From positions 224,916 through 288,915 of the forward strand of contig DBQF01000001.1 of assembly GCA_002305115.1 (NCBI GenBank): a DNA stretch of 64,000 bases. The letters are read 5' to 3'. Positions 16,514-43,957 of the stretch are shown piece after piece (position 1 is the stretch's first letter; each line of letters starts with the position of its first letter). The DNA is from a candidate division WWE3 bacterium UBA1401. Lineage in GTDB: Bacteria; Patescibacteriota; WWE3; UBA101185; UBA10185. The notes below the pieces were generated by a model. The model ran no database searches, was not told the DNA's origin, and saw only the letters and a list, made by a program, of their open reading frames with translations. A program made the position numbers and the translations under genes.

Positions 16514-16519
16514 TGATTT

Positions 16520-16706: not shown

Positions 16707-16715
16707 TAAAATCTC

Positions 16716-16745
16716 TTGACTTACAACACCAAAATTTGCTATATA
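16716..16745 (+). promoter_or_regulatory. sigma70-like promoter for structured RNA 2
   Basis: TTGACT (16716-16721), 17-18 nt spacer, TATATA (16740-16745). Predicted TSS is at the base of the 16752 stem. Confidence 0.4.
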
Positions 16746-16751
16746 GTAACA

Positions 16752-16933: not shown

Positions 16934-16959
16934 CCTCAAGGAGAGATCAATTCTATGTA

Positions 16960-17219
16960 GGAGGGGGAGACTGAGGGTGTGCTGAAACATCACATAAAAG
17001 TAAGCCGCCATCAAAGCAGTCTCCTTCTCCCACTCTTGCACTAAACCTCATACAATGCTAAAACGTATATAGCCTCAGAAATCTGGAATTACAAATTGGC
17101 TCACCGTCTAAACCCCTCCAATTTGTGATATCCAATTTCTATTTTTCGTTCTCCTATTTCTGCCCCAGCTATGCGCAGAGGTTTGTGTACCATAGTATGC
17201 AGCCTCTGCTCCTCTTTTT
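16960..17219 (+). ncRNA. further structured RNA modules (three hairpins, last is terminator-like)
   Basis: 14-bp stem 16960-16973/17017-17030 with two G-U pairs valid only on +. Hairpin 17085-17099/17118-17133 followed by a T-rich run. Hairpin 17175-17181/17203-17209 followed by TCCTCTTTTT. Confidence 0.35.
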
Positions 17220-17270
17220 ACATTTGATAAAATATACACATCTTAAAAAATTCTTCGAAAGGAAAATAGA

Positions 17271-17660
17271 ATGAATCCCTATGTAGCAAACATCCAAGAA
17301 GAAACCCTTGCCAACGAAAATTTCCGAAAAGTCTTATTTACCGCTCCCAACAGTCAACTAGTTGTTATGACCCTTCAACCTAATGAAGACATTGGTATGG
17401 AAGTTCACGGCAACATAGATCAATTTATTAGAATAGAAGAAGGTGAAGGTGTAGTAATTTTAGATGGGCAGGAAACCAAAGTTGAGGATGATTTTGCCAT
17501 AGTCATTCCTGCAGGTACTCAGCACAACTTAATTAACACATCTGCAGACAAGCCTCTAAAGCTATACACCATCTACTCGCCTCCGGAGCACAAAGAAGGC
17601 ACAGTTCATAGCACCAAACAAGAAGCTATGGCTGATGAATATGATCACTATTCAGCTTAA
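17271..17660 (+). CDS. cupin domain protein
   Basis: 'GMEVHGNIDQFIRIEEGEG...IPAGTQHNLIN' is the two-motif cupin signature. Confidence 0.8.
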   Translation: MNPYVANIQEETLANENFRKVLFTAPNSQLVVMTLQPNEDIGMEVHGNIDQFIRIEEGEGVVILDGQETKVEDDFAIVIPAGTQHNLINTSADKPLKLYTIYSPPEHKEGTVHSTKQEAMADEYDHYSA

Positions 17661-32264: not shown

Positions 32265-32828
32265 ATGAATCAAAATGAAGTAATAATTGGAGTTTTTCCG
32301 GATCATAAAAAAGCGGATGATGCGATAAAAGATCTGGAAAAAAACGGTGTTGATGCCAGTAATGTTTCTATAATTATGAAAAGCCCCGGTGAGGGTAAGC
32401 CAGTTGCCGGAGATAAAAACATTAGTGTAGTTGGTGGTGTAGTTAAAAATTTGGCAGGAGGTGCCGGAACAGGTGGCATTATTGGTGGTCTGCTGGGGTT
32501 GTTAGTGGGAATTACGGCAATTACTATTCCTGGGCTAGGGGGTTTACTTATTGCGGGGCCTGTGGCTGAGGCGCTTGGGCTTACGGGTGCTGCTGCTACT
32601 ACTGTAACGGGTGCAGTGACAGGTGCTACGCTTGGTGGTTTGATAGGAATTTTTGAAGGAATTGGTGCTTCCAGGGAAGATGCTAAGATGTATGCTAAAT
32701 ATGTGCAGGATGGAGCTATTCTTGTGGCAGTTCCTGCCATGATGCAACAGGAGTTACAGGTGGAAGATATTATGAAAGAGCATGACGCTCAGCAGGTGGG
32801 TACTATTCCATTAAGAGGCCAGCAGTAA
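32265..32828 (+). CDS. general-stress-type protein with a Gly-zipper membrane segment
   Basis: Paralogue of 23135-23659 ('GVFPDHKKADDAIKDLEKNG', GxxxG core, 'DAKMYAKYVQDG'). Confidence 0.55.
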   Translation: MNQNEVIIGVFPDHKKADDAIKDLEKNGVDASNVSIIMKSPGEGKPVAGDKNISVVGGVVKNLAGGAGTGGIIGGLLGLLVGITAITIPGLGGLLIAGPVAEALGLTGAAATTVTGAVTGATLGGLIGIFEGIGASREDAKMYAKYVQDGAILVAVPAMMQQELQVEDIMKEHDAQQVGTIPLRGQQ

Positions 32829-32869
32829 ACTTTGTCTTTGACACACACTATAAAACCACCTAGACTAAA

Positions 32870-35722
32870 GTGGTAATGCCCAAAGACTTAACTGCCCTGT
32901 TCTGCCCTAAAACTCTTGCCATTGTTGGCGCTTCACGCTCTCCTGAAAAGGTTGGTGCCGTTGTCCTGAAAGGCATTCAAGAGGCGGGTTATGCAGGTAC
33001 AATATATCCTGTAAATCCTAAGGCCGTTGAGGTTGGTGGTCTTAAATGTTATCCAAGCGTGACCGATCTTCCTGAAACTCCCGATCTAGCTATTGTAGCT
33101 ATTCCGGCACCTTTAGTTTTGGAAGCATTAGCAGAAATTGGAGAAAAAGGTGTACCAAACGTAATTGTTATGTCTGCTGGTTTTAAGGAAACCGGTGACG
33201 AAGGTGCAAAGCTGGAAAAGCAGTTAGTTGAATTGGCAGACAAATATCAAATCAACATGCTTGGTCCCAATTGTATGGGTTATGTAAATACTTTGTGTTC
33301 ACTCAATGCTACTTTTGCTCATACTCCTACAGAAGTTGGTAACTTGCGGCTGGTTTCTCAGTCGGGGGCAGTAGCTGCAAGTATCTTTGATTGGTGTGAC
33401 TCTATTAATTTGGGTTTCAGTACTTTTATAACTTTGGGTAATAAGGCACAGATTACTGAAACTGATATTTTGGAATTTTACAAAAACCAGACCTTTGAGC
33501 TTGATAACAAAGGATTGTCACACGTGAGACCCATAGGTCTCTACTTAGAGTCGGTTGCTCACGGTACAGAATTTTTAAAGTTAGTAGAAGCTGTTTCCAA
33601 AACCGATCCAGTGCTAGTCATTAAGCCCGGCAAAACTTCTGCAGGCGAACACGCTATGGCATCACATACCGGTTCTATGGCTGGTGAGGATGTTGTTTTC
33701 GAAACTGCTCTTAGGCAGGCAGGTGGTATAAGGTGCAATACACTAGAGGATTTCTTTGATTTAACTAAAGCTTTTGCCTGGGAAGATGCCCCCAAGGGGC
33801 CTAAAGTTGCGGTGGTTACTAATTCTGGCGGGCCTGGTGTTATCAGTGCCGACGCGGTAGTAAGCTCTGGTTTAGAATTAACCCCTATTACAAATGAACT
33901 TAAGTCAAAATTACTAGAAGTCTTACCTCCGGCTTCTGGTTTAGCCAATCCCGTTGATGTGTTGGGTGATGCTTTGGCCGATAGATATTATCAGGCGGCA
34001 GAGATTTTATTTGAAAATGCGGAAGTTGATGTCATGCTGTTTTTGTTAACCCCTCTTTTAATGACAGAAATAGAGCAAACAGCTGAAGCTATAAATAAAC
34101 TTTCCAAAAAGTATCATAAGCCTATTTTCTGTTCATTTATTGGTGGTACAGAGGTGGTGGCAGGTAATAAAATTTTAGATACCTACAAGATTCCTGCATA
34201 TAACTTCCCTGAAAGGGCTATTTTTGCCATTTCTAAAATGTATGAATGGCAGAGAAACAAACAGCAACATGATGACATTGTTTCACTTGTCGATATGGCT
34301 GCAGATATTGATTTTGAGATTTCCAAACAGATTGTTTTTGGAGCTATCAGAAATCAGCAGGTAGCTTTAGATAATTTCCAAGTAAACGATATATTAACTT
34401 CTGTGGGAATTACAGTGCCTGCTACTAGGCCAGTAAGAACATTGGAAGAAGCACAGATTTTCTCAGCAGAAAATGGCTGGCCAGTGGTTTTGAAACTTTC
34501 TGCCTCCGGTTTGTTACATAAAAAAGACATTGGAGGTGTTATTACATCCATTGACTCATTTCAAGCCTTGGAAGAGTCGTGGGCAAGAATTAACGAGGCT
34601 CTTAACAAACTAGCTCCACAAATGCAAGAGCTGTCAGCTATCCAAATTCAGCAGCAAGTGCCTGACGGTGTTGAAGTAATTGTTGGAGTTAAAAAAGATG
34701 CTACTTTTGGTAATGTTTTGTTATTTGGTGCCGGCGGAACTTTAGCTGAGCTTATTCAAGATAGGAATTTGTATGTTTTACCTATGGAAGATAATGCAGT
34801 TGATAATTTTGTAGCCAGTTCGAAAATTTATAAAGTCCTCAAGGGTTATCGCGGCCACGAAGCTTATGCGCTAGATAAACTTTATGATTTGCTTATCAGG
34901 TTTGCTAAAACTGCTGAGGCACACACCCAAATAGCAGAAATGGAAATTAACCCGGTAATAGTTACACCAGATGCTGTTTGGGCGGTAGATGGTAAGGTAG
35001 TATTAACACAGCAAGCCTCCTCAGTACCTGCCGGGCCTAAGTTTTTAACGGCAAAAACCCTTGAGCATAAAGTGCTGGCTACAACTTATCACTATTTCGA
35101 ATTTGAGCCTGATGTACCGTTAAAATATCAGCCTGGCCAATATTTAAGCGTAAAAGTCTCCAGTGACCGTATTAACTGCTACTCTATTGCCGGCCAGAAA
35201 GGTAATAAATTTAACTTATTAGTAGATGTGCTCCCGGGCGGCCCCGGATCTAAATTTTTTGAAAGCCTTAAGGTAGGTGAAGATGTTAGTTATTTAGGAC
35301 CATTTGGCAATTTTGTGCTGCACGAAGATGATAATGCTAAGCATATTCTCCTGTTAGCTACTGGTTGTGGTTTTGCCCCACTAAAGAGCATTTTGGAGAC
35401 ACTTTTGGTTGATCGCAAGACTACTATTCCCATCAGCTTGTACTTTGGTTTTAGGAAACCCCAGGATGTCTTCTGGGAAGATTATTTTGCTAAATTAGCC
35501 TCAACATATCCGAACTTTAAGTATCACCTAACAGTGGATAAGGCAGAAGGTGATTGGTGTGGCAATATTGGCTATATAACCGAGCTTATTAATAAAGATT
35601 TTGAAGATCTGAAAGGTTTTTCTGCGTATCTTTGCGGTAGTAAACCTATGATTAATGCGGCAGTTGAACTGCTTACAAGTAAAGGCTGTTCGGAGGATAA
35701 TATTTATTATGAAAAGTTATAA
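32870..35722 (+). CDS. ADP-forming acetyl-CoA synthetase (fused alpha/beta) with a C-terminal FNR-like FAD/NAD(P)-binding module
   Basis: CoA-binding 'IAIVGASRSPEKVG'. Succinyl-CoA-ligase-like 'SQSGA' and 'HTGSMAG'. ATP-grasp region. The last ~230 aa carry 'CYSIAG', 'GPFGNF', 'LLATGCGFAPLKS' and 'YLCGSKPM'. Confidence 0.8.
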   Translation: MVMPKDLTALFCPKTLAIVGASRSPEKVGAVVLKGIQEAGYAGTIYPVNPKAVEVGGLKCYPSVTDLPETPDLAIVAIPAPLVLEALAEIGEKGVPNVIVMSAGFKETGDEGAKLEKQLVELADKYQINMLGPNCMGYVNTLCSLNATFAHTPTEVGNLRLVSQSGAVAASIFDWCDSINLGFSTFITLGNKAQITETDILEFYKNQTFELDNKGLSHVRPIGLYLESVAHGTEFLKLVEAVSKTDPVLVIKPGKTSAGEHAMASHTGSMAGEDVVFETALRQAGGIRCNTLEDFFDLTKAFAWEDAPKGPKVAVVTNSGGPGVISADAVVSSGLELTPITNELKSKLLEVLPPASGLANPVDVLGDALADRYYQAAEILFENAEVDVMLFLLTPLLMTEIEQTAEAINKLSKKYHKPIFCSFIGGTEVVAGNKILDTYKIPAYNFPERAIFAISKMYEWQRNKQQHDDIVSLVDMAADIDFEISKQIVFGAIRNQQVALDNFQVNDILTSVGITVPATRPVRTLEEAQIFSAENGWPVVLKLSASGLLHKKDIGGVITSIDSFQALEESWARINEALNKLAPQMQELSAIQIQQQVPDGVEVIVGVKKDATFGNVLLFGAGGTLAELIQDRNLYVLPMEDNAVDNFVASSKIYKVLKGYRGHEAYALDKLYDLLIRFAKTAEAHTQIAEMEINPVIVTPDAVWAVDGKVVLTQQASSVPAGPKFLTAKTLEHKVLATTYHYFEFEPDVPLKYQPGQYLSVKVSSDRINCYSIAGQKGNKFNLLVDVLPGGPGSKFFESLKVGEDVSYLGPFGNFVLHEDDNAKHILLLATGCGFAPLKSILETLLVDRKTTIPISLYFGFRKPQDVFWEDYFAKLASTYPNFKYHLTVDKAEGDWCGNIGYITELINKDFEDLKGFSAYLCGSKPMINAAVELLTSKGCSEDNIYYEKL

Positions 35723-37439
35723 CAACTTAAGATTTACTATAAAGATTGGTGGTGAAGCAGGTCAGGGTATTAAGTCTGCAGGTGTTATGCTTGCTAAAGT
35801 TGCTACACGAAGCGGTTATCACACATATTCGTATACAGAGTATCCCTCACTGATTCGTGGAGGCCATAACGTTACGCAAATAGAAATTGCAGAAGAGCCA
35901 GTTACCGGGCCTTCTGATAATACAGATTTCTTAATTGCTCTAAACCAGGAAACTTTAGATTTGCACGCTAATGAGCTAACTTCTGGCAGTGGCGTTTTAA
36001 TGGATACAGATAAGAAATTAACTTTACCGAAAAATTGTCCGTTTGAAGTAGTAAGCTTTCCGGTTCCCCTAAAAGAATTGGCCGGAAAAGATCTGCTTGT
36101 TAATACTGTAGCCTTAGGCGCAACGTTAGCTTTGTTAAAAGGTGATTTGGAAATCTTGAAAGATTTGCTGCAGGAAGCATTTGGCGCCAAAGGTGAAGAG
36201 GTTATTGCTATGAACGTAAAGGCCGCAGAGGCTGGTTATAACTATGTTGTAGACACTTACGCTAAAGGTAAGAATGTTATATACAAGAATTATCTGGAGA
36301 AAAAAGAAATAACTTCCGACCAAATTGTTATCAATGGGAATGAAGCCGTTGCGTTGGGAGCTATTGCGGCGGGGTTACAATTTGCTGCTATTTATCCCAT
36401 GTCTCCCATTTCCAATATTTTGCACGTACTGGCAGCTCACCAGGAAGAATATGGCTATGTTTATAAACAACCAGAAGACGAAATTTCTGCTATCAACATG
36501 GCTATTGGCGCCTCATTTGCCGGTGCCAGAAGTATGACTACTACTTCCGGTGGCGGTTTTTGTTTAATGACCGAAGGTTTAGGATTAGCTGGAATGACGG
36601 AAACGCCTTTAGTTATTGTAGATGGTATGCGTGGCGCTCCTGCTACGGGTTTGCCTACCTGGAGCGAGCAAAGTGACATGCAAATGGTTTTGCGCGCGCA
36701 TCAAGGTGATTTTCCTAGAATAGTTCTTGCTGCGGGTGACCCCGAAGAAGCGTTTTATTTAACTATGCAGGCATTTAATTTGGCCGATAAGTACCAAACA
36801 CCTGTTGTTTTGCTAATAGACAAAAATATCTGTGAAAATGACCAAAGTTTTAGTTTATTTGATACATCGGGTTACAAAGTAGATAGAGGTAAATTCACCA
36901 TGACAAGAGTGGAAGATTTCAAGCGCTTTGCGTTGGCAAAAGATGGTATTTCGGAAAGAAGTGTGCCGGGAAGTGGGAACTTTTTTATAGCGAATTCAGA
37001 TGAACACGATGAGTTTGGTTATTCCAATGAAGAAATTGCTAACAGAAATGAACAGATGCAGAAACGCATGGCGAAACTTGAGACCTGTGCTACAGAAGAC
37101 ATGGCTGCCCCCGTTTTGTATGGCCCGGAAGATGCTGAGGTCACTCTAGTTTCGTGGGGAAGTAACAAGGGCAGTATTTTGCAGGCGATGAAAGGTTTTA
37201 AAGAAAGAAAAGTTAATTTCATGCATATTACTTGGATAAATCCCTTCCCGGCAGAGGCTGTAGCGGCAGTTTTAACTAAAGCAAAGCATGTTGTAAATAT
37301 AGAATGTAATTACAGTGCGCATATGGGAAGTTTGATTCGGGAAAAAACCGGTATTGAGATTAAAGATAATTTACTAAAGTATGATGGAAGGCCGTTTTTT
37401 GTGGAAGCAATAGAGGCTAAGTTAAGGGAGGTATTATAG
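35709..37439 (+). CDS. 2-oxoacid:ferredoxin oxidoreductase, fused gamma/alpha subunit
   Basis: ATG at 35709 overlaps the upstream stop. Gamma motif 'IGGEAGQGIKSAG', then an alpha-subunit pyrimidine-binding region. Confidence 0.85.
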   Translation: MKSYNNLRFTIKIGGEAGQGIKSAGVMLAKVATRSGYHTYSYTEYPSLIRGGHNVTQIEIAEEPVTGPSDNTDFLIALNQETLDLHANELTSGSGVLMDTDKKLTLPKNCPFEVVSFPVPLKELAGKDLLVNTVALGATLALLKGDLEILKDLLQEAFGAKGEEVIAMNVKAAEAGYNYVVDTYAKGKNVIYKNYLEKKEITSDQIVINGNEAVALGAIAAGLQFAAIYPMSPISNILHVLAAHQEEYGYVYKQPEDEISAINMAIGASFAGARSMTTTSGGGFCLMTEGLGLAGMTETPLVIVDGMRGAPATGLPTWSEQSDMQMVLRAHQGDFPRIVLAAGDPEEAFYLTMQAFNLADKYQTPVVLLIDKNICENDQSFSLFDTSGYKVDRGKFTMTRVEDFKRFALAKDGISERSVPGSGNFFIANSDEHDEFGYSNEEIANRNEQMQKRMAKLETCATEDMAAPVLYGPEDAEVTLVSWGSNKGSILQAMKGFKERKVNFMHITWINPFPAEAVAAVLTKAKHVVNIECNYSAHMGSLIREKTGIEIKDNLLKYDGRPFFVEAIEAKLREVL

Positions 37440-37441
37440 AC

Positions 37442-38323
37442 ATGACTGATCAAATCGCTTCAATTACACCTGTAGCTACAGATTTAAACACACCGTGTTC
37501 CCCTACTTGGTGCCCCGGATGTGGTAATTTTGCGATTCTTAGTGCATTCAAAAAGGCTGCAACGCAAGAGGGGTGGAATAACACTAACACTTCAATGGTG
37601 GCTGGGATTGGGTGCCATGGGCACATAGTCAATTATGTAAAGCTAACTTCGGTAGAAGGTCTGCATGGCAGAGCCATTCCGGTGGGCACTGGCATTAAAA
37701 TGGCCAATCATGAGCTTAATGTGTTTGTGTTTACGGGTGATGGTGACTGTATGGGCGAAGGTGGTAATCATTTTATTCATGCCTGCCGCAGGAATCATGA
37801 TATTACAATAGTTCTGCATAACAATAATATTTACGGGTTAACTACTGGGCAGACGTCTCCCACTTCGCCGCATAACTTTAAGACCAAGTCGACGCCGGAT
37901 GGCAACCCGGATTACCCGTTGTTGCCAGTACCGTTAGCGATAGCTAGTGGGGCTACATTTGTTGCCAGGGAGTATGCAGGAAATGTGAAGGAGCTTACGG
38001 AGCTCTTGATTAGGGCGAATTCGCATAAGGGCATTTCGATTTTAGAAGTGGTGCTGCCGTGTGTTTCGTTTAATAAAGAGTTTGGGGCAGAATTTTTTAA
38101 GGAGAATACGTATCGTTTGCCTGAAGATTATGACGTTACAGATAAGGTTGCCGCGTTTGCGAAGGCGTTGGAATGGGGGTCTCATCAGGTGCCGCTGGGA
38201 GTGTTTTATGAAGAAGCTAAGCCTTCGTATGAGTCTGAAATTCCCCAATTACAGCACAATATTTTGTTGGAAAATACCTATATGGATCGAGATGTGACGG
38301 GGTTGTTAAGGAAGCAAGGATAG
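37442..38323 (+). CDS. 2-oxoacid:ferredoxin oxidoreductase beta subunit (TPP-binding)
   Basis: 'TWCPGCGNF', 'GIGCHG' and 'TGDGDCMGEGGNH'. Confidence 0.85.
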   Translation: MTDQIASITPVATDLNTPCSPTWCPGCGNFAILSAFKKAATQEGWNNTNTSMVAGIGCHGHIVNYVKLTSVEGLHGRAIPVGTGIKMANHELNVFVFTGDGDCMGEGGNHFIHACRRNHDITIVLHNNNIYGLTTGQTSPTSPHNFKTKSTPDGNPDYPLLPVPLAIASGATFVAREYAGNVKELTELLIRANSHKGISILEVVLPCVSFNKEFGAEFFKENTYRLPEDYDVTDKVAAFAKALEWGSHQVPLGVFYEEAKPSYESEIPQLQHNILLENTYMDRDVTGLLRKQG

Positions 38324-38537: not shown

Positions 38538-39509
38538 ATGCATCCTAACCAGAATCGAATAGACTACAAAGGTTATATTGTGCCAGTTCTTAAGGAAGTG
38601 TCAGATGCATATGGTTTTGGTAGTTACAAAGAGCATAAGGTTATTGAAACAGGGTACGAAGACTTCAACGTAATACTGACAACCAATCTTGGCAGATTTT
38701 TCCTTAAGTTTTTTGCCAAGTTTAGAGATGAGATTGAGTGTCAGCGGTATGTTGATATTATGGTAGCTGCCATATTGCAAGGTGTCAGCCACCCTAAGCA
38801 GTATGGCTCTCCCATGGGTTATATGTTTACCAAAGAAACTGAAGAAGGCATTGTAAGACTTGTCGCCCTTGAATACATAGAAGGTAAAACATTTTATGAT
38901 ATGAAAAGGAAACCTGACGATAGCGAAAGTGCTCTTGTAGTACAACAGGCTGCTCTGATAAATAAGATGCCCATAAAGCCCCAGTATTTCTATGATGATT
39001 GGGCAGTTGTAAATTTACTAGTAGAGTTCGAAAAACTTAAGAATCACCTGTCCAAAGAGGATATTGCCTTAATTGAGCCTGTTGTAGCTAAGTTCTCTGA
39101 TATTGATATTCCTAGCTTACCCAACTGTTTTGTGCACGGTGACATAATTGATACCAATGTTTTGCTTGCAGATGATGGAAAAGTTTATGTTTTAGATTTT
39201 TCAGTTGCAAATTGCTACCCTCGGGTGCAGGAACTGGCTGTTATGCTCTGTGACATATTATTTAATGCTAATGCCTCCACATTCCAGAGGAAAATGGATC
39301 AAGCTTTAGTGGTTTATCAGGAAATTGTTTCCTTGGAAGCGCGTGAGCTTGAAGTATTGCCGATATTTGTGCAAGCAGCTCACGCTATGCATATTATCGG
39401 GGCCTCGAAGTTTGCTAGTACTGGTGGTGCGTCTGCGGAGAATGATCATTGGTTGGAAGTAGGTAGAGCTGGCCTTAAAGCTTCTATCGAATTTTGGGGA
39501 GATATTTAA
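38538..39509 (+). CDS. phosphotransferase (APH/choline-kinase family)
   Basis: 'CFVHGDIIDTNVLLADDGKVYVLDFS' Brenner/APH catalytic motif. Confidence 0.7.
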   Translation: MHPNQNRIDYKGYIVPVLKEVSDAYGFGSYKEHKVIETGYEDFNVILTTNLGRFFLKFFAKFRDEIECQRYVDIMVAAILQGVSHPKQYGSPMGYMFTKETEEGIVRLVALEYIEGKTFYDMKRKPDDSESALVVQQAALINKMPIKPQYFYDDWAVVNLLVEFEKLKNHLSKEDIALIEPVVAKFSDIDIPSLPNCFVHGDIIDTNVLLADDGKVYVLDFSVANCYPRVQELAVMLCDILFNANASTFQRKMDQALVVYQEIVSLEARELEVLPIFVQAAHAMHIIGASKFASTGGASAENDHWLEVGRAGLKASIEFWGDI

Positions 39510-39550: not shown

Positions 39551-39802
39551 ATGAATCAAGATCAAACATACCAAATAGGCAAATACAAAGTTACCGTTTT
39601 ACGTGATATGTGCATAGGTGCAGCCACATGCACTGCAGTTTCACCTTCCACTTTCCAGCTGGATGCCGAAAACAAAGCAGTAATTCAGGAAGCTAGCACC
39701 GATACCCCGGAAAATATAGTAATGGCAGCGCAGTCTTGCCCAACTAGAGCCATTGTTGTGGTAGATACCGAAACTGGTGAGCAAGTCTGGCCGGTGGAAT
39801 AA
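39551..39802 (+). CDS. small ferredoxin
   Basis: 'CIGAATCTAV...AAQSCPTRAI' single-cluster ferredoxin pattern. Confidence 0.75.
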   Translation: MNQDQTYQIGKYKVTVLRDMCIGAATCTAVSPSTFQLDAENKAVIQEASTDTPENIVMAAQSCPTRAIVVVDTETGEQVWPVE

Positions 39803-39805
39803 CTC

Positions 39806-40756
39806 ATGTCAGCTTCTGCCCGAAAAGGCGTTTATTTCGCCATAATCCCTGCTTTAATATCCGGAATTTCTATATTTGTTAACAAATTTGCTGTTGGTGC
39901 TATTACACCGCCTCTGCTTTTTACTACTGCAAAAAATGTAGGAGTTGCTTTGGTTTTGTTAGTGTTGCTGTTGGCCAGAAGTAACTGGTACAAAATAAGA
40001 GCTTTAAGCAAAAGTGATTTTCTAAAGCTGTGCCTGATAGGTCTGGTTGGTGGCTCGGTGCCCTTTTATTTGTTTTTTACTGGGCTGGCCCAAATTCCTG
40101 CCATCAGTTCAGCAATTATTCATAAAACATTGGTGATTTGGGTTGCTCTTTTGGCAGTACCTTTGCTTAAAGAAAAAGTTAATGTGATTCAGGGAATTGG
40201 TGTGTTGTTACTTTTTGCCAGTAACTTTGTAGTTGGTGGGTTTAAGGGGTTTGAGTTTTCGGTTGGGGAGGTTCTTACGCTTGCCGCAACGCTGTTATGG
40301 GCAGGGGAGACTATATTGGTTAAAAAATTGTTACCAAAAATCGATTCAGATCTAGTCGCGTTATTCCGAATGGGTGTTGGTGCTTTGGTCTTAATGATGG
40401 TCTCGGCACTGACTGTGCCCTCGGCTGCAGTACAGCTGACCGTTACGCAAACAATGTGGCTTGGAGTTACTATGGTTTGTTTAGCCGGGTATGTTTTGAG
40501 TTGGTATAAGGCCTTAAAGTACGCGCCCGCTGTTGTGGTGACTTCGGTTTTGGTGCTTTCCACGTTGGTCACGAATGTTTTGTCTGCTGTCTTTATCACG
40601 CATAGTTGGAGTTTTTCCGGCACGTTGCATGGTGGATTAATAGTGTTAGGGTTAGTAGGTGTGTGCTCGGCAAGTGGGTTTCCGGTGCTCGCGGAGCTAC
40701 GCACGCTGCGCTCCGTAGAACCCCCATTGCCTCGCAATCCTGTAAGCAGTCAGTAG
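39806..40756 (+). CDS. DMT-superfamily (EamA) transporter
   Basis: Ten predicted TM helices in a duplicated EamA-like architecture. Confidence 0.75.
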   Translation: MSASARKGVYFAIIPALISGISIFVNKFAVGAITPPLLFTTAKNVGVALVLLVLLLARSNWYKIRALSKSDFLKLCLIGLVGGSVPFYLFFTGLAQIPAISSAIIHKTLVIWVALLAVPLLKEKVNVIQGIGVLLLFASNFVVGGFKGFEFSVGEVLTLAATLLWAGETILVKKLLPKIDSDLVALFRMGVGALVLMMVSALTVPSAAVQLTVTQTMWLGVTMVCLAGYVLSWYKALKYAPAVVVTSVLVLSTLVTNVLSAVFITHSWSFSGTLHGGLIVLGLVGVCSASGFPVLAELRTLRSVEPPLPRNPVSSQ

Positions 40757-40785: not shown

Positions 40786-40819
40786 GTTAGTTGTCAGAAG
40801 TTAGAAGTTAGTAGTCAAC
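40786..40819. repeat. stop-codon-rich TTAG/TCAG repeat element (single arm)
   Basis: GTTAGTTGTCAGAAGTTAGAAGTTAGTAGTCAAC lies between convergent genes. Confidence 0.65.
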
Positions 40820-41559
40820 ACCCGCTCTGTCCAAAACCTCAACTTATGCGCTTCGTCTTGCGTTAACACTTTTACTACCACACCCCAATGCACCGCTACT
40901 ACTTTTTTTGGCGTAACTTCCTCTATCAGTCTCTTATCTACAGTCAATTCTTCAGGTATCACCGTCAGCTCATGTTTTCCTTCCGTGCTTTGCATCAGCG
41001 AATTCAAGTCGGTCTTAATAATATTATCCTGTACTTCTGTAACCTTGCCCCACCTGATCATACAATTATTAATCGACTCTATGTTGAATGTCACCGCGCC
41101 ACTGCTCCTGCCTACCCCCACATGCAGCACCTGAAACAGATGGTTTGGAATAAATGCTTTTGGTTGTTTATGTGCCAGTTCTTCCAACAAATTTTCGGGT
41201 ACCCCTTGGGCTTTAAAGTTTTCCAGCAACAAACTGTAATCTTCGAGCTTTGCTCTTTCCAATAAATCATTTCCCAACCAATAAGCCTCTATAACTTCAT
41301 AGTCAAACATAATTTTGTTTGAAATCTGTGCCAAAGTTTTTAAATAAGGATGCAAAACAATAAAGTGCGGTATTTCTGCAGTAACTTGTTCACAGTTGCC
41401 GGTTGCAATACACCCTAAAAACTTTGCTGGCGCACTATCTTTTCCACAGTAACCCAACGCATTTGGAGACAGCGAAAATCTACTTAATAGTTGAAGAGCC
41501 TTTGTGTTCATAACGGGTTTAATAATACCTACACTTGTGGGTAAAATACAGCTATGCAA
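40801..41559 (-). CDS. conserved hypothetical protein adjacent to hydrogenase genes
   Basis: ORF with a TTG start at 41559; alternative ATG at 41511. 'LSPNALGYCG' motif. Function unknown. Confidence 0.5.
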   Translation of the reverse strand: MHSCILPTSVGIIKPVMNTKALQLLSRFSLSPNALGYCGKDSAPAKFLGCIATGNCEQVTAEIPHFIVLHPYLKTLAQISNKIMFDYEVIEAYWLGNDLLERAKLEDYSLLLENFKAQGVPENLLEELAHKQPKAFIPNHLFQVLHVGVGRSSGAVTFNIESINNCMIRWGKVTEVQDNIIKTDLNSLMQSTEGKHELTVIPEELTVDKRLIEEVTPKKVVAVHWGVVVKVLTQDEAHKLRFWTERVLTTNF

Positions 41560-41955
41560 GTTTATGTTTTTGGCAATGAAGATGTTTCACATGACAATGC
41601 CGCTATCAAGGTCGCCAAGGTTCTTTCAGGAACAATTCCAAACGTAGCATTTGTTTTTGTTAAACCCAACGAAGACTTACCATTTGCCGGAAACCAAAAC
41701 GTTGTATTAATGGATACTGTTCTGGGAGTTGACGAAGTAAGGTTACTGGAAAATGCAGATCTAGACACGCTTATATTAAATTCCCGTACTTCTGTACATG
41801 ATTTTGATTTGGGTTTTCAATTAAGATACTTAAAAAAGCTTGGGCTGTTGGAAAAAGTTACGTTAATTGCGTTACCCATGCAGGGTGACGTTGACTATAC
41901 TCTTATCCAATCTATCTTAAGGAAATTAGTGGCACAAGACATACACGGGTCATAA
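41554..41955 (+). CDS. putative hydrogenase maturation endopeptidase (HycI/HoxW-like)
   Basis: 'VFGNEDVSHDNAAIKVA' resembles the GNxxxxDDxxG start of these proteases. Context: next to the NiFe large subunit. Confidence 0.55.
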   Translation: MQVYVFGNEDVSHDNAAIKVAKVLSGTIPNVAFVFVKPNEDLPFAGNQNVVLMDTVLGVDEVRLLENADLDTLILNSRTSVHDFDLGFQLRYLKKLGLLEKVTLIALPMQGDVDYTLIQSILRKLVAQDIHGS

Positions 41956-43196
41956 GCTCTGATAATTTTTTCTGCATTCAGCTTAAGTTCCTTTTCCGGT
42001 TTATCCAGATTTTCGTTGAAATAATGCTTTAGATCTCGTTCAATATTGATTTGGTTTTGGGAAGTTGGAACAATCACGTCGTAATCTTCAATTTTGCCTG
42101 AAGCATCAATTTTTGCCATGTGATATAAAACGCCGCGTGGTGCTTCCACTACGCCTACTCCTGTTCCTGCCCTAACTGGCGCTGTTACAGGTTTCTCCTC
42201 TGTAATTTTAATGGTTTTTAAGATATCAATAGCATCATCTACACACTGCAAAATTTCGATAGCTTGGGCAAGGTTGTTGTGATAAACATTATCCGAAGGA
42301 AATACGCCAAGATATTTTTTAGTGTCTTTAACGGTTCTTTTGTGCAGCAAGTCTTTATTAAAGTTAATACGAGCCAAAGCGCCTACTAAATAGTCTTCTT
42401 TGGTTTTCGAAATAAGATAGCCCTTAGACTCAGAATATGGGATTACTACAGTTTTCAAAAAGTTCATGAACTCTGCTTCGGGAATAGCAGGCCCGCCGGA
42501 AATAACGATGTTGCCTTCCAGGAAATCAAACTGCTTGTCATTTCTTAAGTAAATATAATCAGAATCTCTGACCAAGCTTTCCTGCCAGTCGTAAAAAGTT
42601 TGAATGCCCCGTAATACTTGCGGTCGAACTGCTTCTAACCGGTCTATTAGTTCCGGGAATTTCTGTGGATCCGGGTTTCTTAGCATGCCCCCGATAGTAG
42701 GCAGTGGTGCGTGAATGGCTGCCCCAATGGTAGCTTCCGACAAGTCTGTTCCCAGTTTTTTAATATCAAACGAATCATGCAGCAAAATATGCCCCAAATC
42801 ATCACCGTCATCTGGAATATCTAAAATAGAGTCCAGACCCAAAATATCCGGTAAGACGAAGAAGTATAAGTGCAAGGCGTGGTCTCTGATCATTAATGCA
42901 TTGTAAGCTAGCCTTCTAATCAGCTTAGTTTGCTCAGTGATAGTTATACCCTGTGCTTTTTCAATAGTTTCCAGTGACGCAAATAAGTGTGCTACCGAGC
43001 AAGTGCCACAAATTCTGGATAAAAAGGCAGGTACGGCAGTTATAGGTGTACCCTTAACTGTTTGGGAATAAAACCTGCGGTAGTCGTTAATGTAAAACTT
43101 TAGGTCTGTAACTTTGTTGTTTTCGATTACAACCTTAATGCCCGCACTACCTTCTATTTTTGAAATGCTTTCTATGGTTATATCACCTGAGTGCAC
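41895..43196 (-). CDS. [NiFe]-hydrogenase large subunit (group 3-like, 433 aa)
   Basis: N-terminal 'RICGTCSVAH' (RxCGxCxxxH). C-terminal 'DPCMSCATN' (DPCxxCxxH-type motif with Asn). Confidence 0.85.
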   Translation of the reverse strand: MHSGDITIESISKIEGSAGIKVVIENNKVTDLKFYINDYRRFYSQTVKGTPITAVPAFLSRICGTCSVAHLFASLETIEKAQGITITEQTKLIRRLAYNALMIRDHALHLYFFVLPDILGLDSILDIPDDGDDLGHILLHDSFDIKKLGTDLSEATIGAAIHAPLPTIGGMLRNPDPQKFPELIDRLEAVRPQVLRGIQTFYDWQESLVRDSDYIYLRNDKQFDFLEGNIVISGGPAIPEAEFMNFLKTVVIPYSESKGYLISKTKEDYLVGALARINFNKDLLHKRTVKDTKKYLGVFPSDNVYHNNLAQAIEILQCVDDAIDILKTIKITEEKPVTAPVRAGTGVGVVEAPRGVLYHMAKIDASGKIEDYDVIVPTSQNQINIERDLKHYFNENLDKPEKELKLNAEKIIRAYDPCMSCATNFLKIDWIRV

Positions 43197-43197
43197 A

Positions 43198-43725
43198 TTA
43201 ATTCTCCTTTTCTACTACACCAAACAGCTGTAGGTATTTAAACAATGTTTCCAGGAATTTTACTTTATTCATAGGGCAGCCATGAACCATGTCATCTACT
43301 TTAATTACATCTGCCAGTTTTTTAACTTTGTCATTGTAATTAAACTTTTTCATGTACCAGCCGATTTCTTCGGTAATGTCTTGGGCTACAAATTTATTTC
43401 TGCTTGCCGATGGCATGCCGGTACAGGCACATGCGCCAATGGCTACAACATACTTAGCGTTTTCTCTGATGGTACGGGCACGTTTGGCTTGGGATTCTGA
43501 GGAAATTGCCCCTTCGATAAAGGCCACATCAAGGTCTCTTAATTCATTTTTGGATTTTAAAGCTTTGAAGTATCTGAACTCTACAAGTTGTTTAAGGTCA
43601 TCGTGCATGTCGTTTAAAATTTCGGTAAGCAAGATAGTACTGTCTTCCGAACAGGTAAAAGAAAACCAGCCAACGATAAGTTTTTTAGGTGTGTTTGTGG
43701 TGTTTGTTTTTGTAGTCATGGGCAA
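43198..43725 (-). CDS. [NiFe]-hydrogenase small (delta/NuoB-like) subunit
   Basis: 'GWFSFTCSEDS', 'GACACTGMP' and 'HGCPM' cluster ligands. Confidence 0.8.
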   Translation of the reverse strand: MPMTTKTNTTNTPKKLIVGWFSFTCSEDSTILLTEILNDMHDDLKQLVEFRYFKALKSKNELRDLDVAFIEGAISSESQAKRARTIRENAKYVVAIGACACTGMPSASRNKFVAQDITEEIGWYMKKFNYNDKVKKLADVIKVDDMVHGCPMNKVKFLETLFKYLQLFGVVEKEN

Positions 43726-43756: not shown

Positions 43757-43957
43757 ATGTGTTTAGCAATTCCGGGGAAAGTTATTAATACAAAAGGTCA
43801 GAAGGTTACTGTGCAGTATCCGCAAGAGCGAAGGGAAGTTTTTGCCGGCGGTATGTCTGTTGTGGTGGGGGATTGGGTGTTGGTGCAGATGGGTATTGTG
43901 GTGAAGGTGTTGTCTGAGGAGGAGGCTTTGGAATCCCAAAAGGCTTGGGATTATTAG
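43757..43957 (+). CDS. hypC: hydrogenase assembly chaperone HypC/HupF
   Basis: Canonical 'MCLAIPGKVI' N-terminus, 66 aa. Confidence 0.85.
   Translation: MCLAIPGKVINTKGQKVTVQYPQERREVFAGGMSVVVGDWVLVQMGIVVKVLSEEEALESQKAWDY

What the first reader, a model, noticed from the sequence alone, without database searches (positions are those of the whole stretch)
32870..38323. ADP-forming acetyl-CoA synthetase fused to an FNR-like flavoprotein module, overlapping 2-oxoacid:ferredoxin oxidoreductase genes
Seen in sequence: the 950-aa ORF contains the CoA-binding, ligase and ATP-grasp parts of an ADP-forming acetyl-CoA synthetase. Its last ~230 aa (from about 35030) carry ferredoxin-NADP-reductase-type motifs: CYSIAG, GPFGNF, LLATGCGFAPLKS and YLCGSKPM. 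Its stop overlaps the start of the gamma/alpha oxidoreductase subunit (35709). The beta subunit follows 2 nt later, and a small ferredoxin lies at 39551. Established knowledge: the oxidoreductase plus acetyl-CoA synthetase form the ATP-yielding 2-oxoacid-to-acid fermentation branch, and FNR-like modules move electrons between ferredoxin (or Fe-S partners) and NAD(P). Inference: the fusion would physically couple substrate-level phosphorylation to reoxidation of the reduced ferredoxin produced one step earlier. It may also stand in for the missing gamma subunit of the nearby two-subunit hydrogenase. I do not know of this domain fusion being described.
Basis: partly seen in the sequence, partly recalled or inferred. 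Interest (0 to 1): 0.55.

Follow-up and report, generated by a model that had tools for sequence, protein, structure and literature searches.

The report
ACD fused to ferredoxin-reductase-like flavoprotein
A real gene fusion, conserved in one branch of the ultra-small Patescibacteria, joins an ATP-making acyl-CoA synthetase to an NAD(P)H-binding flavoprotein, and it sits in a conserved gene cluster that suggests how these fermenters pass electrons between 2-oxoacid oxidation, NAD(P)H and a stripped-down hydrogenase.

Summary
The ORF at 32870/32876..35722 encodes a complete ADP-forming acyl-CoA synthetase (ACD). A short linker joins it to a 226-aa ferredoxin-NADP-reductase-like (FNR-like) FAD/NAD(P) module.

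It is not an assembly artefact. The top 120 database relatives share the architecture at only ~50% identity. In 39 of 39 testable species-representative genomes the ORF is continuous. All named ones are Patescibacteria (WWE3, Levy-, Davies-, Roizman-, Shapirobacteria).

Both ACD catalytic histidines and the FNR motifs are conserved.

The gene heads a conserved cluster: ACD-FNR, 2-oxoacid:ferredoxin oxidoreductase (OFOR) alpha and beta, a 3-Cys ferredoxin, an EamA transporter, DUF6390, a protease, and a two-subunit "hyd2" [NiFe] hydrogenase with HypC.

Unfused relatives of the FNR module lie directly upstream of OFOR alpha, or directly upstream of a homologue of the same ferredoxin (NifU-FNR-Fd).

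My best reading: the module is an NAD(P)(H):ferredoxin oxidoreductase for this ferredoxin, fused to a neighbouring operon gene. It is not a HydG orthologue. Functional replacement of the missing hydrogenase gamma subunit remains possible but unproven.

I found no paper describing the fusion. I rate it a new variant of known parts, of moderate interest.

The parts
32870..35722 (+). ACD-FNR fusion gene. It is 950 aa from GTG 32870. The likely true start is ATG 32876, giving 948 aa, identical to P0001.
32870..35005 (+). ACD part (aa 1-712). The alpha-type domains (CoA-binding, CoA-ligase, Ligase_CoA_2) are followed by the beta-type ATP-grasp. The catalytic His266 and His550 are present.
   Evidence: Pfam. 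PDB sequence hits 8wzu_A (E 6e-118) and 4xyl_A/B. H266 aligns to His254 of 4xyl_A and H550 to His68 of 4xyl_B. Both are invariant in 120 sequences. Foldseek TM 0.92-0.93 normalised to target.
35006..35038 (+). Linker between ATP-grasp and FNR module (about aa 713-723). It is poorly conserved; pLDDT is below 50 at aa 716-721.
35039..35719 (+). FNR-like FAD/NAD(P)-binding module (aa 724-950). It has no Fe-S motif.
   Evidence: Pfam. Motif conservation. AF2 pLDDT 95, pTM 0.90. Foldseek hits 5ogx, 2r6h, 1krh, 1qfj. PDB sequence hits NqrF and BenC.
35709..37439 (+). 2-oxoacid:ferredoxin oxidoreductase alpha subunit (gamma-alpha fused). Its start overlaps the ACD-FNR stop by 14 nt, and a GGAGGA Shine-Dalgarno sequence lies at 35691-35696.
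   Evidence: Pfam POR+POR_N+PFOR_II. TIGR03710 scores 642 bits, above the 482.75 cut-off. Sequence.
37442..38323 (+). 2-oxoacid:ferredoxin oxidoreductase beta subunit (TPP and a single [4Fe-4S]). It is of the two-subunit Sulfolobus tokodaii type.
   Evidence: Pfam. TIGR02177 scores 299 bits, above the 261.9 cut-off. Best PDB hit 5b48_B, E 1e-62.
38538..39509 (+). APH-family phosphotransferase. It is a lineage-specific insertion between OFOR beta and the ferredoxin and is not part of the conserved cluster.
   Evidence: Pfam. No APH match in any related locus.
39551..39802 (+). Small mono-cluster ferredoxin (83 aa, Fer4_13) with a conserved three-Cys pattern CxxAxxC...CP. It is the proposed redox partner of the FNR module, OFOR and the hydrogenase.
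   Evidence: Pfam. Alignment of 39 orthologues. 44% identical (E 1e-27) to the ferredoxin encoded directly after a stand-alone FNR relative in L099.
39806..40756 (+). EamA-family transporter (carboxylate/amino acid/amine type), a conserved member of the cluster.
40801..41559 (-). DUF6390 protein, a conserved member of the cluster. Function unknown.
   Evidence: Pfam. Synteny.
41554..41955 (+). HycI-like hydrogenase maturation protease (weak match). It overlaps the 3' end of the large-subunit gene convergently by 61 nt.
   Evidence: Pfam HycI E 0.019. Orthologue in L001 carries HycI (weak). Synteny.
41895..43196 (-). [NiFe] hydrogenase large subunit. It is related to group 3b and fits the CPR 'hyd2' type.
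   Evidence: Pfam. NCBIfam HydA/ShyA are the best matches but far below cut-off. PDB 5yxy_A and 9nez_D are the best hits. Jaffe et al. 2020 PMC7304191.
43198..43725 (-). Truncated [NiFe] hydrogenase small subunit (175 aa). It matches only the N-terminal ~150 residues of HydD and has four Cys, enough for one cluster.
43757..43957 (+). HypC/HupF hydrogenase chaperone.
   Evidence: Pfam E 1.5e-17. Same position in L001 and L003.

Best explanation
The gene encodes a genuine bifunctional protein of Patescibacteria (Microgenomatia/WWE3).

The N-terminal 712 aa are a catalytically competent NDP-forming acyl-CoA synthetase. It carries out acyl-CoA + ADP + Pi -> acid + ATP + CoA, by way of two phosphohistidines.

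The C-terminal 226 aa are a minimal FNR-type flavoprotein. I propose that it exchanges electrons between NAD(P)(H) and the small three-Cys ferredoxin encoded four genes downstream.

That ferredoxin would act as the local electron hub. It would be reduced by the single-cluster two-subunit OFOR, and probably reoxidised either by the FNR module (yielding NAD(P)H) or by the stripped-down two-subunit hyd2 [NiFe] hydrogenase (yielding H2). In the reverse direction the same hub would let NAD(P)H feed the hydrogenase.

The fusion arose by joining two adjacent genes of a 'ligase-FNR-OFOR' operon. It guarantees co-expression and stoichiometry and perhaps proximity. The redox function does not depend on it.

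Shown: the architecture, its conservation, intact catalytic and cofactor motifs, the gene order, and the FNR-OFOR and FNR-ferredoxin adjacency in unfused relatives.

Inferred: the flavin and NAD(P)H chemistry, ferredoxin as partner, the direction of electron flow, and any physical complex.
For: Architecture and reality of the fusion:
- Pfam and NCBIfam assign the domains.
- 120 of the 120 best homologues share the architecture at about 50% identity.
- The ORF is continuous in 39 of 39 loci from different species representatives.

ACD is competent:
- H266 aligns to His254-alpha and H550 to His68-beta of ckcACD1. Both are invariant.
- The structure model matches 8wzu and 4xym at TM 0.92-0.93.

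The FNR module is under purifying selection on its cofactor motifs. Y771-S772, G791/G793/S794, F797, G813, T831-G832, Y920, G923, M927 and E948 are invariant. AF2 gives pLDDT 95. The nearest folds are GcoB reductase, NqrF, BenC and Fre.

Partner evidence:
- OFOR alpha is adjacent in 31 of 35 loci, the ferredoxin is downstream in 26 of 29, and the hydrogenase is present in 18 of 22.
- Unfused FNR relatives lie immediately upstream of OFOR alpha in L019, L034, L085, L086 and L087.
- More basal relatives occur as NifU_N > FNR > ferredoxin, where the ferredoxin is 44% identical to the window's and has the same CxxAxxC..CP pattern.

The OFOR beta subunit is of the StOFOR type, which needs an external ferredoxin (established knowledge). 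The hydrogenase lacks beta and gamma subunits and has a one-cluster small subunit. Jaffe et al. 2020 report the same for hyd2, stating that its partners are unknown.
Against: - No biochemical data exist for any member.
- The Arg of the canonical R-x-Y-S flavin motif is Asn in the window protein and in 102 of 120 relatives. Flavin binding may therefore be atypical.
- The C-terminal aromatic residue that stacks on the flavin is Leu in the window protein. It is F or Y in 99 of 120 relatives.
- NADH versus NADPH preference cannot be read from the sequence.
- A three-Cys (probably [3Fe-4S]) ferredoxin may be too high in potential for H2 evolution.
- Four loci (L031-L033, L044) lack OFOR next to ACD-FNR.
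- Hyd2-like hydrogenases occur without ACD-FNR or the ferredoxin in other organisms.
- Gene adjacency is not proof of protein-protein electron transfer.
Confidence: 0.6

Rival explanations
1. Functional surrogate of the missing hydrogenase diaphorase. The FNR module (in place of HydG) and the small ferredoxin (in place of HydB) together wire NAD(P)H to the two-subunit hyd2 hydrogenase. The main job of the module would then be NAD(P)H-dependent H2 evolution or uptake rather than serving OFOR. This overlaps with the best explanation and differs in emphasis.
For: - Hyd2 has no beta or gamma subunit and a truncated one-cluster small subunit.
- The hydrogenase is present in 18 of 22 loci with enough flank.
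- It stays next to ACD-FNR even where OFOR is absent from the locus (L031-L033).
- Jaffe et al. saw an 'NAD-binding motif' and an Fe-S family near some hyd2 on the other strand.
- The SHI gamma subunit is a structural neighbour (9nf0_C, E 1e-17).
Against: - The module is not a HydG/ShyC orthologue. It scores 32-35 bits against cut-offs of 600-650, while BenC, MmoC and Fre score about 103-108 bits.
- It has no Fe-S domain.
- It lies 6 kb from the hydrogenase on the opposite strand.
- The module's tightest and most general neighbour is OFOR alpha or the ferredoxin, also in unfused forms.
- Hyd2-like enzymes exist without it.
Confidence: 0.3
2. Direct OFOR partner. ACD-FNR docks on OFOR alpha-beta, and the flavin takes electrons straight from the beta-subunit [4Fe-4S] cluster. 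This would make a ferredoxin-independent 2-oxoacid:NAD(P)+ oxidoreductase/ACD complex, analogous to pyruvate:NADP+ oxidoreductase, possibly with acyl-CoA channelling.
For: - FNR lies immediately upstream of OFOR alpha in fused and unfused forms.
- There is a 14-nt overlap with an internal Shine-Dalgarno sequence, which suggests translational coupling.
- The two-subunit OFOR lacks its own ferredoxin-like delta domain.
Against: - The ferredoxin gene is almost always present in the cluster (26 of 29).
- Basal relatives pair FNR with a homologue of that ferredoxin without any OFOR in the locus.
- ACD-FNR occurs without adjacent OFOR in four loci.
- No docking evidence exists. The full-length model has a flexible linker and pTM 0.69.
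Confidence: 0.15
3. Fre-like NAD(P)H:flavin (or other small-acceptor) reductase. The module would reduce free flavins, iron or an oxygen-defence protein, unrelated to OFOR or the hydrogenase.
For: - Its size and fold match E. coli Fre best in coverage (1qfj, TM 0.87 normalised to target), and the NCBIfam PRK08051 match is nearly full length.
- The Arg-to-Asn change in the flavin motif could mean loosely bound flavin.
- In L039 the unfused ACD is followed by a flavodiiron-type protein.
Against: This reading does not explain the conserved position upstream of OFOR alpha and of the ferredoxin. The Fre score of 103 bits is below its cut-off of 230.
Confidence: 0.1
4. Regulatory or sensor domain. 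The FNR module would sense the NAD(P)H/NAD(P)+ ratio or flavin redox state and gate ACD activity, much as the ACD-like domain regulates the GNAT domain in PatZ.
For: There is precedent for ACD-superfamily proteins with a C-terminal accessory domain (PatZ 9it0/9isq). Fusion to ACD is the majority state (39 of 44 loci).
Against: The module exists and is conserved as a separate gene, or next to a non-homologous AMP-forming ligase. All catalytic-type FNR motifs are conserved.
Confidence: 0.07
5. Assembly or annotation artefact: a missed stop codon or frameshift between two separate genes.
For: None found. Unfused arrangements do exist in a few relatives (L019, L034, L039, L087).
Against: The frame is continuous in the window, in 39 of 39 independent species-level loci and in 120 of 120 top hits from NCBI, JGI, ENA and Logan assemblies.
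Confidence: 0.01

Closest known systems
NDP-forming acyl-CoA synthetases. These include ACD, EC 6.2.1.13 (Pyrococcus furiosus ACS I/II, Ca. Korarchaeum ACD1, PDB 4xyl/4xym), fused alpha-beta forms, and Nitrosopumilus 4-hydroxybutyryl-CoA synthetase (8wzu).
   Same: It has the same five-subdomain architecture in alpha-then-beta order. Both catalytic histidines are present. The structure model superposes at TM 0.92-0.93. It sits in the same pathway position, next to a 2-oxoacid:ferredoxin oxidoreductase.
   Different: It carries an extra C-terminal FAD/NAD(P) module. The TIGR02717 score (498) is below the equivalog cut-off (567), so substrate identity is open. It is bacterial (Patescibacteria).
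FNR-like reductase modules of the BenC / MmoC / NqrF / GcoB / Fre class (PF00970 + PF00175).
   Same: It has the two-domain fold and the motifs x-Y-S, GGxGS, GPxGxF, TGxGxAP, YxCG and a C-terminal E-K-F/Y. The best sequence and fold matches are in this class.
   Different: There is no N-terminal [2Fe-2S] domain; the ACD occupies that position. The Arg of R-x-Y-S is mostly Asn. All NCBIfam scores are far below the equivalog cut-offs.
Pyruvate:NADP+ oxidoreductase (PNO) of Euglena and Cryptosporidium, in which PFOR is fused to an NADPH-cytochrome P450 reductase-like module (from my own knowledge).
   Same: The logic is the same: an FNR-type NAD(P) module is genetically welded to the 2-oxoacid-oxidising, acetyl-CoA-forming branch so that electrons can reach NAD(P).
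   Different: Here the flavoprotein is fused to the next enzyme (ACD), not to the oxidoreductase. There is no FMN/flavodoxin domain. A separate ferredoxin is conserved in the cluster.
Group 3b [NiFe] sulfhydrogenase diaphorase subunits HydB/HydG (P. furiosus SHI, PDB 9nez/9nf0) and the CPR 'hyd1' four-subunit enzymes.
   Same: HydG has an FNR-like FAD/NAD(P)H fold. The neighbouring hydrogenase is 3b-related and lacks these subunits, so FNR plus ferredoxin could fill the same role.
   Different: It is not orthologous to HydG, has no Fe-S cluster, is not in the hydrogenase operon, and is fused to ACD.
PatZ/Pat protein acetyltransferase, an ACD-like domain plus a C-terminal GNAT (PDB 9it0, 9isq).
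   Same: It is a precedent for an ACD-superfamily scaffold carrying a C-terminal accessory domain.
   Different: The accessory domain is a GNAT rather than an FNR. Here the ACD histidines are intact, which suggests real ligase activity.
Ferredoxin/ferredoxin-reductase pairs that serve Fe-S cluster assembly scaffolds (ISC-type Fdx/FdR; from my own knowledge).
   Same: The basal stand-alone relatives are encoded as NifU_N > FNR > ferredoxin (L099, L101). This points to an NAD(P)H-to-ferredoxin reductase function for the family.
   Different: The ferredoxin is a Fer4_13 three-Cys type rather than a [2Fe-2S] Fdx. In the window the pair is embedded in a catabolic cluster.

Membership tests
NDP-forming acyl-CoA synthetase (ACD) superfamily | Five subdomains: CoA-binding, CoA-ligase flavodoxin-like, Ligase_CoA_2 and ATP-grasp. 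| tested here: met
   Pfam hits are all above gathering scores. PDB hits are 8wzu_A at E 6e-118 and 4xyl_A/B. Foldseek TM is 0.92-0.93.
NDP-forming acyl-CoA synthetase (ACD) superfamily | Phosphohistidine of the alpha part on the swinging loop (His254-alpha in ckcACD1). | tested here: met
   H266 in ...MASHTGSMAG... aligns to residue 254 of 4xyl_A. It is invariant in 120 sequences.
NDP-forming acyl-CoA synthetase (ACD) superfamily | Second histidine in the ATP-grasp (beta) part (His71-beta in P. furiosus, His68 in 4xyl_B). | tested here: met
   H550 in ...LLHKKDIGGV... aligns to residue 68 of 4xyl_B. It is invariant.
Acetate--CoA ligase (ADP-forming), equivalog level (TIGR02717) | Score at or above the curated equivalog cut-off; acetyl-CoA as substrate. 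| tested here: not met
   It scores 498 bits against a cut-off of 567.15. Substrate range cannot be tested with these tools.
FNR-like FAD/NAD(P)-binding reductases (PF00970 + PF00175) | Two-domain fold: a six-stranded FAD beta-barrel plus a Rossmann-like NAD(P) domain. | tested here: met
   Both Pfam domains score above their cut-offs. AF2 gives pLDDT 95 and pTM 0.90. Foldseek gives E 2e-21 to 1e-17 against GcoB, NqrF, BenC, Fre and SHI-gamma.
FNR-like FAD/NAD(P)-binding reductases (PF00970 + PF00175) | R-x-Y-S/T flavin-binding motif. | tested here: inconclusive
   Y771-S772 are invariant. The Arg position is Asn in the window and in 102 of 120 relatives, and Arg in 18 of 120. An Arg two residues upstream is present in 97 of 120.
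FNR-like FAD/NAD(P)-binding reductases (PF00970 + PF00175) | Glycine-rich NAD(P) loop (GxGxxP) and the Y-x-C-G motif. | tested here: met
   T831-G832-x-G834-x-[AS]-P837 and Y920-x-C922-G923...M927 are conserved.
FNR-like FAD/NAD(P)-binding reductases (PF00970 + PF00175) | C-terminal aromatic residue stacking on the flavin. | tested here: inconclusive
   The family has F in 69 and Y in 30 of 120 sequences. The window protein ends in Leu.
FNR-like FAD/NAD(P)-binding reductases (PF00970 + PF00175) | Bound flavin and NAD(P)H-dependent electron transfer. | not testable with these tools
   This needs purified protein.
Group 3b hydrogenase gamma subunit (HydG/ShyC) | Sequence membership (NF040835 / NF040830). 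| tested here: not met
   It scores 32.0 and 35.2 bits against cut-offs of 650 and 600. BenC, MmoC and Fre models score 103-108 bits.
Group 3b hydrogenase gamma subunit (HydG/ShyC) | An Fe-S cluster domain in addition to the FAD/NAD(P) module. | tested here: not met
   The protein ends at the FNR C-terminus. Only C922 and C940 are conserved Cys.
Group 3b hydrogenase gamma subunit (HydG/ShyC) | Encoded in the hydrogenase operon with the beta, delta and alpha subunits. | tested here: not met
   It lies 6 kb away on the opposite strand, and no beta subunit is present in the cluster.
Pyruvate:NADP+ oxidoreductase-type fusion | A 2-oxoacid oxidoreductase and an NADPH-binding FMN/FAD reductase on one polypeptide. 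| tested here: not met
   FNR is fused to ACD and not to OFOR, and there is no flavodoxin domain.
CPR 'hyd2' group-3b-related [NiFe] hydrogenase (neighbouring genes) | A 3b-related large subunit, a small subunit truncated to about 164 aa, no adjacent beta or gamma subunit, and HypC nearby (Jaffe et al. 2020). | tested here: met
   The large subunit's best matches are HydA/ShyA and 5yxy/9nez. The small subunit is 175 aa and matches only positions 5-153 of 261 in HydD. HypC is at 43757-43957. No phylogenetic placement was done.

The most novel reading that the evidence does not exclude
ACD-FNR, the three-Cys ferredoxin and the two-subunit OFOR would be the long-missing partners of the CPR 'hyd2' hydrogenase. 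Together they would form one modular, possibly physically associated, fermentation unit. In it a ligase-tethered FNR plus a free ferredoxin replace the HydG/HydB diaphorase of group 3b hydrogenases. Electrons from both 2-oxoacid oxidation and NAD(P)H would then converge on a minimal [NiFe] enzyme while ATP is made on the same polypeptide. This would define a new functional subclass of group 3 hydrogenase systems and a new type of redox-linked ACD.
Probability: 0.25. Interest if true: 0.7.

Novelty: new variant of a known kind. Interest (0 to 1): 0.5.

Why it matters
Patescibacteria (CPR) are a huge, mostly uncultured group. Their energy metabolism is inferred almost entirely from genomes.

Their fermentative core of OFOR plus ACD is known. 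[quoted passage not shown] Jaffe et al. 2020 explicitly left open how the truncated 'hyd2' hydrogenase works without its beta and gamma subunits.

The fusion acts as a Rosetta-stone link. Together with the FNR-OFOR and FNR-ferredoxin adjacencies in unfused relatives, it nominates a specific NAD(P)-linked flavoprotein and a specific ferredoxin as the missing electron-transfer parts. The hypothesis can be tested directly with four or five small recombinant proteins.

It also adds a new domain architecture to the ACD superfamily. These proteins are currently annotated only as 'acetate--CoA ligase family protein', 'acetyltransferase' or 'hypothetical'.

Tried and rejected
- **Frameshift or missed stop:** rejected. 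The frame is continuous in the window, in 39 of 39 loci and in 120 of 120 homologues.
- **HydG orthology of the module:** rejected on NCBIfam scores and the missing Fe-S domain.
- **Naming the source organism:** failed. P0001 is identical to the window protein, but no encoding contig is on record and its cluster carries no name or accession. Rfam found only three tRNAs in the window. Relatives place it in Patescibacteria.
- **Obligate hydrogenase link:** rejected by a reverse-anchored test on the hydrogenase large subunit. Hyd2-like enzymes occur without ACD-FNR (L088-L091, an organism with 65% GC; L092-L094, next to a Pyr_redox_2 flavoprotein).
- **Fixed ACD-FNR docking:** not supported by full-length AlphaFold. 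pTM is only 0.69 and the linker has low confidence. Model coordinates and PAE were not available to inspect contacts.
- **Promoter and terminator scan:** the number of sites is not above the shuffled expectation, so it was not used as evidence.
- **NADH versus NADPH specificity:** considered, but I could not assign it from the sequence.
- **Literature:** eight searches were submitted; six ran and two failed on a too-short term. The six searches and five papers read found no description of the fusion. Kantor 2013 and Kadnikov 2020 list ACS, POR and a ferredoxin reductase as separate items.
- **NJ tree of FNR modules:** this is a rough distance tree. I use it only to say that ~230-aa stand-alone forms branch outside the fused clade and that some are nested within it.

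Full report
**1.

The window contains an uninterrupted ORF at 32870..35722 (+), 950 aa from a GTG start. The identical database protein P0001 (948 aa) and the family consensus begin at the ATG at 32876.

Pfam finds a complete NDP-forming acyl-CoA synthetase followed by an FNR-type module:
- CoA_binding_2, aa 14-139
- Succ_CoA_lig, aa 157-302
- Ligase_CoA_2, aa 313-464
- ATP-grasp_5, aa 492-712
- FAD_binding_6, aa 741-815
- NAD_binding_1, aa 828-932

The gene junctions are as described:
- The stop TAA (35720-35722) lies 14 nt inside the next gene. That gene's ATG is at 35709 and is preceded by GGAGGA at 35691-35696.
- The OFOR beta gene starts 2 nt after the alpha stop.
- The ferredoxin (39551-39802) and a two-subunit [NiFe] hydrogenase (41895-43725, minus strand) are present.

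**2. The fusion is real and conserved.**

A search of 5.8 billion proteins returned 120 best hits. All are 935-990 aa, all have the same seven Pfam domains, and they are only 49-54% identical to the query. They come from NCBI, JGI, ENA and Logan assemblies. Named examples are Roizmanbacteria, Levybacteria, Daviesbacteria, WWE3 and 'Patescibacteria group'.

A scan of one genome per GTDB species found 44 loci with the module at 38-57% identity. In all 39 loci where both parts are on the contig and adjacent, the ACD-to-FNR frame has no stop. A missed stop or frameshift is therefore excluded for the family.

At 50% clustering the family collapses to a handful of representatives. It is a single, moderately divergent clade.

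**3. Both halves look functional.**

ACD part:
- H266 aligns with His254 of the Ca. Korarchaeum ACD1 alpha subunit, and H550 with His68 of its beta subunit.
- From my own knowledge of Braesen et al. 2008 and Weisse et al. 2016, these are the two phosphohistidines of the ACD mechanism.
- Both are invariant in 120 sequences.
- The full-length AlphaFold model (pLDDT 89) superposes on Nitrosopumilus 4-hydroxybutyryl-CoA synthetase and on ckcACD1 at TM 0.92-0.93, normalised to target.
- The TIGR02717 score (498) is below the equivalog cut-off (567), so the acyl substrate is open.

FNR module:
- It models at pLDDT 95 and pTM 0.90.
- Its nearest folds are the GcoB reductase, the NqrF FAD domain, BenC, the carbazole dioxygenase reductase and E. 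coli Fre. The P. furiosus SHI gamma subunit is a more distant neighbour.
- The family motifs are under strong constraint.
- Two deviations are worth noting. The Arg of R-x-Y-S is Asn in the window and in 102 of 120 relatives. The C-terminal aromatic residue (F or Y in 99 of 120) is Leu in the window protein.
- There is no Fe-S motif. Its closest characterised relatives (BenC, MmoC, NqrF) carry an N-terminal [2Fe-2S] domain, but here the ACD occupies that position.

**4. Context: a conserved cluster of ten conserved genes, plus one lineage-specific insertion.**

Across fetched loci the order is ACD-FNR > OFOR alpha > OFOR beta > ferredoxin > EamA transporter > (reverse) DUF6390 > HycI-like protease > (reverse) [NiFe] large subunit > (reverse) small subunit > HypC.

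Among the 44 species loci with enough flank:

| Feature | Loci |
|---|---|
| OFOR alpha directly adjacent | 31 of 35 |
| Ferredoxin downstream | 26 of 29 |
| Hydrogenase present | 18 of 22 |

In four loci (L031-L033, L044) OFOR is absent from the locus, but ACD-FNR still sits directly beside other members of the cluster: ferredoxin and/or EamA, DUF6390, the protease and the hydrogenase in L031-L033, and the ferredoxin in L044, where the contig ends soon after.

The APH-like kinase at 38538-39509 is a local insertion.

The OFOR beta subunit is closest to the two-subunit, single-cluster Sulfolobus tokodaii enzyme (5b48_B, E 1e-62). From established knowledge, that enzyme hands electrons to an external ferredoxin.

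The ferredoxin is 60-73% identical across most loci. It has only three Cys, in a CxxAxxC...CP pattern. This is the pattern of [3Fe-4S]-type mono-cluster ferredoxins (from my own knowledge).

**5. The hydrogenase is the 'hyd2' type.**

- The large subunit's best matches are group 3b enzymes: HydA/ShyA, and PDB 5yxy and 9nez.
- The small subunit is 175 aa. It covers only the first ~150 positions of HydD and has four Cys.
- No beta or gamma subunit is present.
- This matches the CPR clade that Jaffe et al. 2020 (PMC7304191) called hyd2. They describe truncated small subunits (mean 164 aa), no proximal beta or gamma, an 'NAD-binding motif' and an Fe-S family somewhere nearby but not on the same strand, and conclude that its 'function remains uncertain'.
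- My inference is that those two vague neighbours are the FNR part of this fusion and the three-Cys ferredoxin.
- Other CPR lineages have normal four-subunit 3b enzymes (PMC10811913).

**6. Unfused relatives reveal the module's partners.**

- Within the same clade some genomes carry the FNR as a separate gene, still immediately upstream of OFOR alpha. These are L019 (no ligase nearby; the rest of the cluster is intact), L087 (unfused 718-aa ACD a few genes away) and L039 (unfused 744-aa ACD).
- In four cases (L034, L085, L086, L100) the gene in front of the FNR is a non-homologous AMP-forming acetate-CoA ligase. OFOR follows in three of them (L034, L085, L086). In L100 the truncated downstream gene was not identified.
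- More basal ~230-aa relatives (rough NJ tree) occur as NifU_N > FNR > ferredoxin (L099) or NifU_N > FNR (L101).
- The L099 ferredoxin is 44% identical (E 1e-27) to the window ferredoxin and has the same three-Cys signature.
- The constant neighbours of this FNR lineage are therefore OFOR alpha or this ferredoxin family. ACD is not a constant neighbour.

**7. Most likely mechanism (confidence about 0.6).**

The module is an NAD(P)(H):ferredoxin oxidoreductase specific for the cluster's small ferredoxin. The ferredoxin is the hub between OFOR, the FNR and, probably, hyd2.

In the fermentative direction:
- 2-oxoacid + CoA -> acyl-CoA + CO2 + reduced ferredoxin (OFOR)
- acyl-CoA + ADP + Pi -> acid + ATP (ACD)
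- reduced ferredoxin -> NAD(P)H (FNR) or H2 (hyd2)

In reverse, the FNR could pass NAD(P)H electrons to the hydrogenase by way of the ferredoxin.

The fusion is best seen as a fusion of adjacent operon genes that fixes stoichiometry. The low-confidence linker (aa 716-721) and pTM 0.69 give no sign of a rigid ACD-FNR interface.

The direction of flow, the nucleotide preference, the type of flavin and any supercomplex are inferences.

Kadnikov et al. 2020 (PMC7143001) already drew 'POR, ACS, FNOR' as separate boxes in a Microgenomates reconstruction. The functional idea is therefore not new, but the fusion and the conserved cluster have not been described, as far as I can find.

**8. Rivals.**

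- **Functional replacement of HydG/HydB for hyd2.** This is compatible with the synteny but is not orthology. It is weakened by hyd2-like loci that lack ACD-FNR and the ferredoxin: L088-L091 in a 65% GC organism, and L092-L094 next to a different Pyr_redox_2 flavoprotein.
- **Direct docking on OFOR, as in PNO.** This is possible but ignores the conserved ferredoxin and the NifU-FNR-Fd operon.
- **A Fre-like free-flavin reductase, or a redox sensor of ACD.** Neither explains the unfused arrangements.

**9. Novelty and verdict.**

Every part belongs to a known family. The combination (ACD + FNR on one chain) and the conserved cluster tying it to OFOR, a three-Cys ferredoxin and hyd2 are, as far as six literature searches and five papers show, undescribed. 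The proteins are abundant in public databases under generic names.

I rate it a new variant of a known kind, with interest 0.5. It is not a new mechanism. It is a useful Rosetta-stone clue that makes an explicitly open question, the partners of CPR hyd2 and redox balancing in Microgenomatia/WWE3, directly testable.

Noticed in passing
window 39551-39802 (and orthologues in 38 loci): The cluster ferredoxin has only three Cys, in a strictly conserved CI[GS]A[AGT][ST]C...CP pattern, and a conserved C-terminal ETGxQVWP. This predicts a [3Fe-4S]-type (or non-Cys-ligated) mono-cluster ferredoxin. One orthologue (L036) has CTGDGVC, like the P. furiosus ferredoxin.
   Followed up: partly
window 41554-41955 (+) versus 41895-43196 (-): The HycI-like protease gene and the hydrogenase large-subunit gene overlap convergently by 61 nt at their 3' ends. 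The same 61-nt overlap appears in the called genes of L001 (16573-17001 versus 16941-18242) and L003 (15870-16271 versus 16211-17512), although protein identity is only ~55-70%.
   Followed up: partly
window 40801-41559 (-): A DUF6390 protein is a constant member of the cluster, lying between the EamA transporter and the hydrogenase protease in nearly all loci. Its function is unknown; it may be a hydrogenase or ferredoxin accessory factor.
   Followed up: no
window 43198-43725 (-): The hydrogenase small subunit has only four Cys (C25, C99, C101, C149). Its first motif reads TCSED instead of the usual CxxC, so the proximal cluster ligation may be unusual.
   Followed up: no
window 38538-39509 (+): An APH-family phosphotransferase is inserted between OFOR beta and the ferredoxin. 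Related loci have gaps of variable size at exactly this point (for example L010, L016, L017), so this looks like a hotspot for insertions inside the operon.
   Followed up: partly
window 32838-32866 (+): A promoter-like site, TTGACA-17-TAGACT, ends 3-9 nt before the possible start codons of ACD-FNR (GTG 32870, ATG 32876). There is no obvious Shine-Dalgarno sequence, so the mRNA may be leaderless. The scan as a whole was not above chance.
   Followed up: no
L088-L091 (metagenome contigs, 65% GC): A hyd2-like large subunit (about 64% identical), a truncated small subunit and the protease occur in a high-GC, apparently non-Patescibacteria organism. Neighbours are unrelated (GH65, HAD hydrolase, DUF4870). 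This suggests lateral transfer of the minimal hydrogenase.
   Followed up: partly
L092-L094 (metagenome contigs): A more distant two-subunit hydrogenase (about 46% identical) keeps the protease and an EamA transporter as neighbours. It also has a HypC-like gene and a 430-aa Pyr_redox_2/FAD-dependent protein nearby, which may be an alternative flavoprotein partner. A RuBisCO-like/HTH protein lies upstream.
   Followed up: partly
L039 7372-8556 and 10815-15995: In this genome the unfused ACD is followed by a flavodiiron-type protein (ODP metallo-beta-lactamase fold plus flavodoxin). A 1726-aa alpha-2-macroglobulin homologue carrying Hint/intein-like domains separates the FNR from OFOR.
   Followed up: no
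L034 8287-9994: The AMP-forming acetate-CoA ligase upstream of the stand-alone FNR is split into two overlapping ORFs (439 aa AMP-binding and 137 aa AMP-binding_C). This is either a frameshift or sequencing error, or a pseudogene.
   Followed up: no
window 32265-32828 (+): Directly upstream of ACD-FNR lies a 187-aa protein with an N-terminal YflT stress-protein domain and a long Gly/Ala-rich, membrane-like repeat region. It is not conserved in the related loci examined.
   Followed up: no
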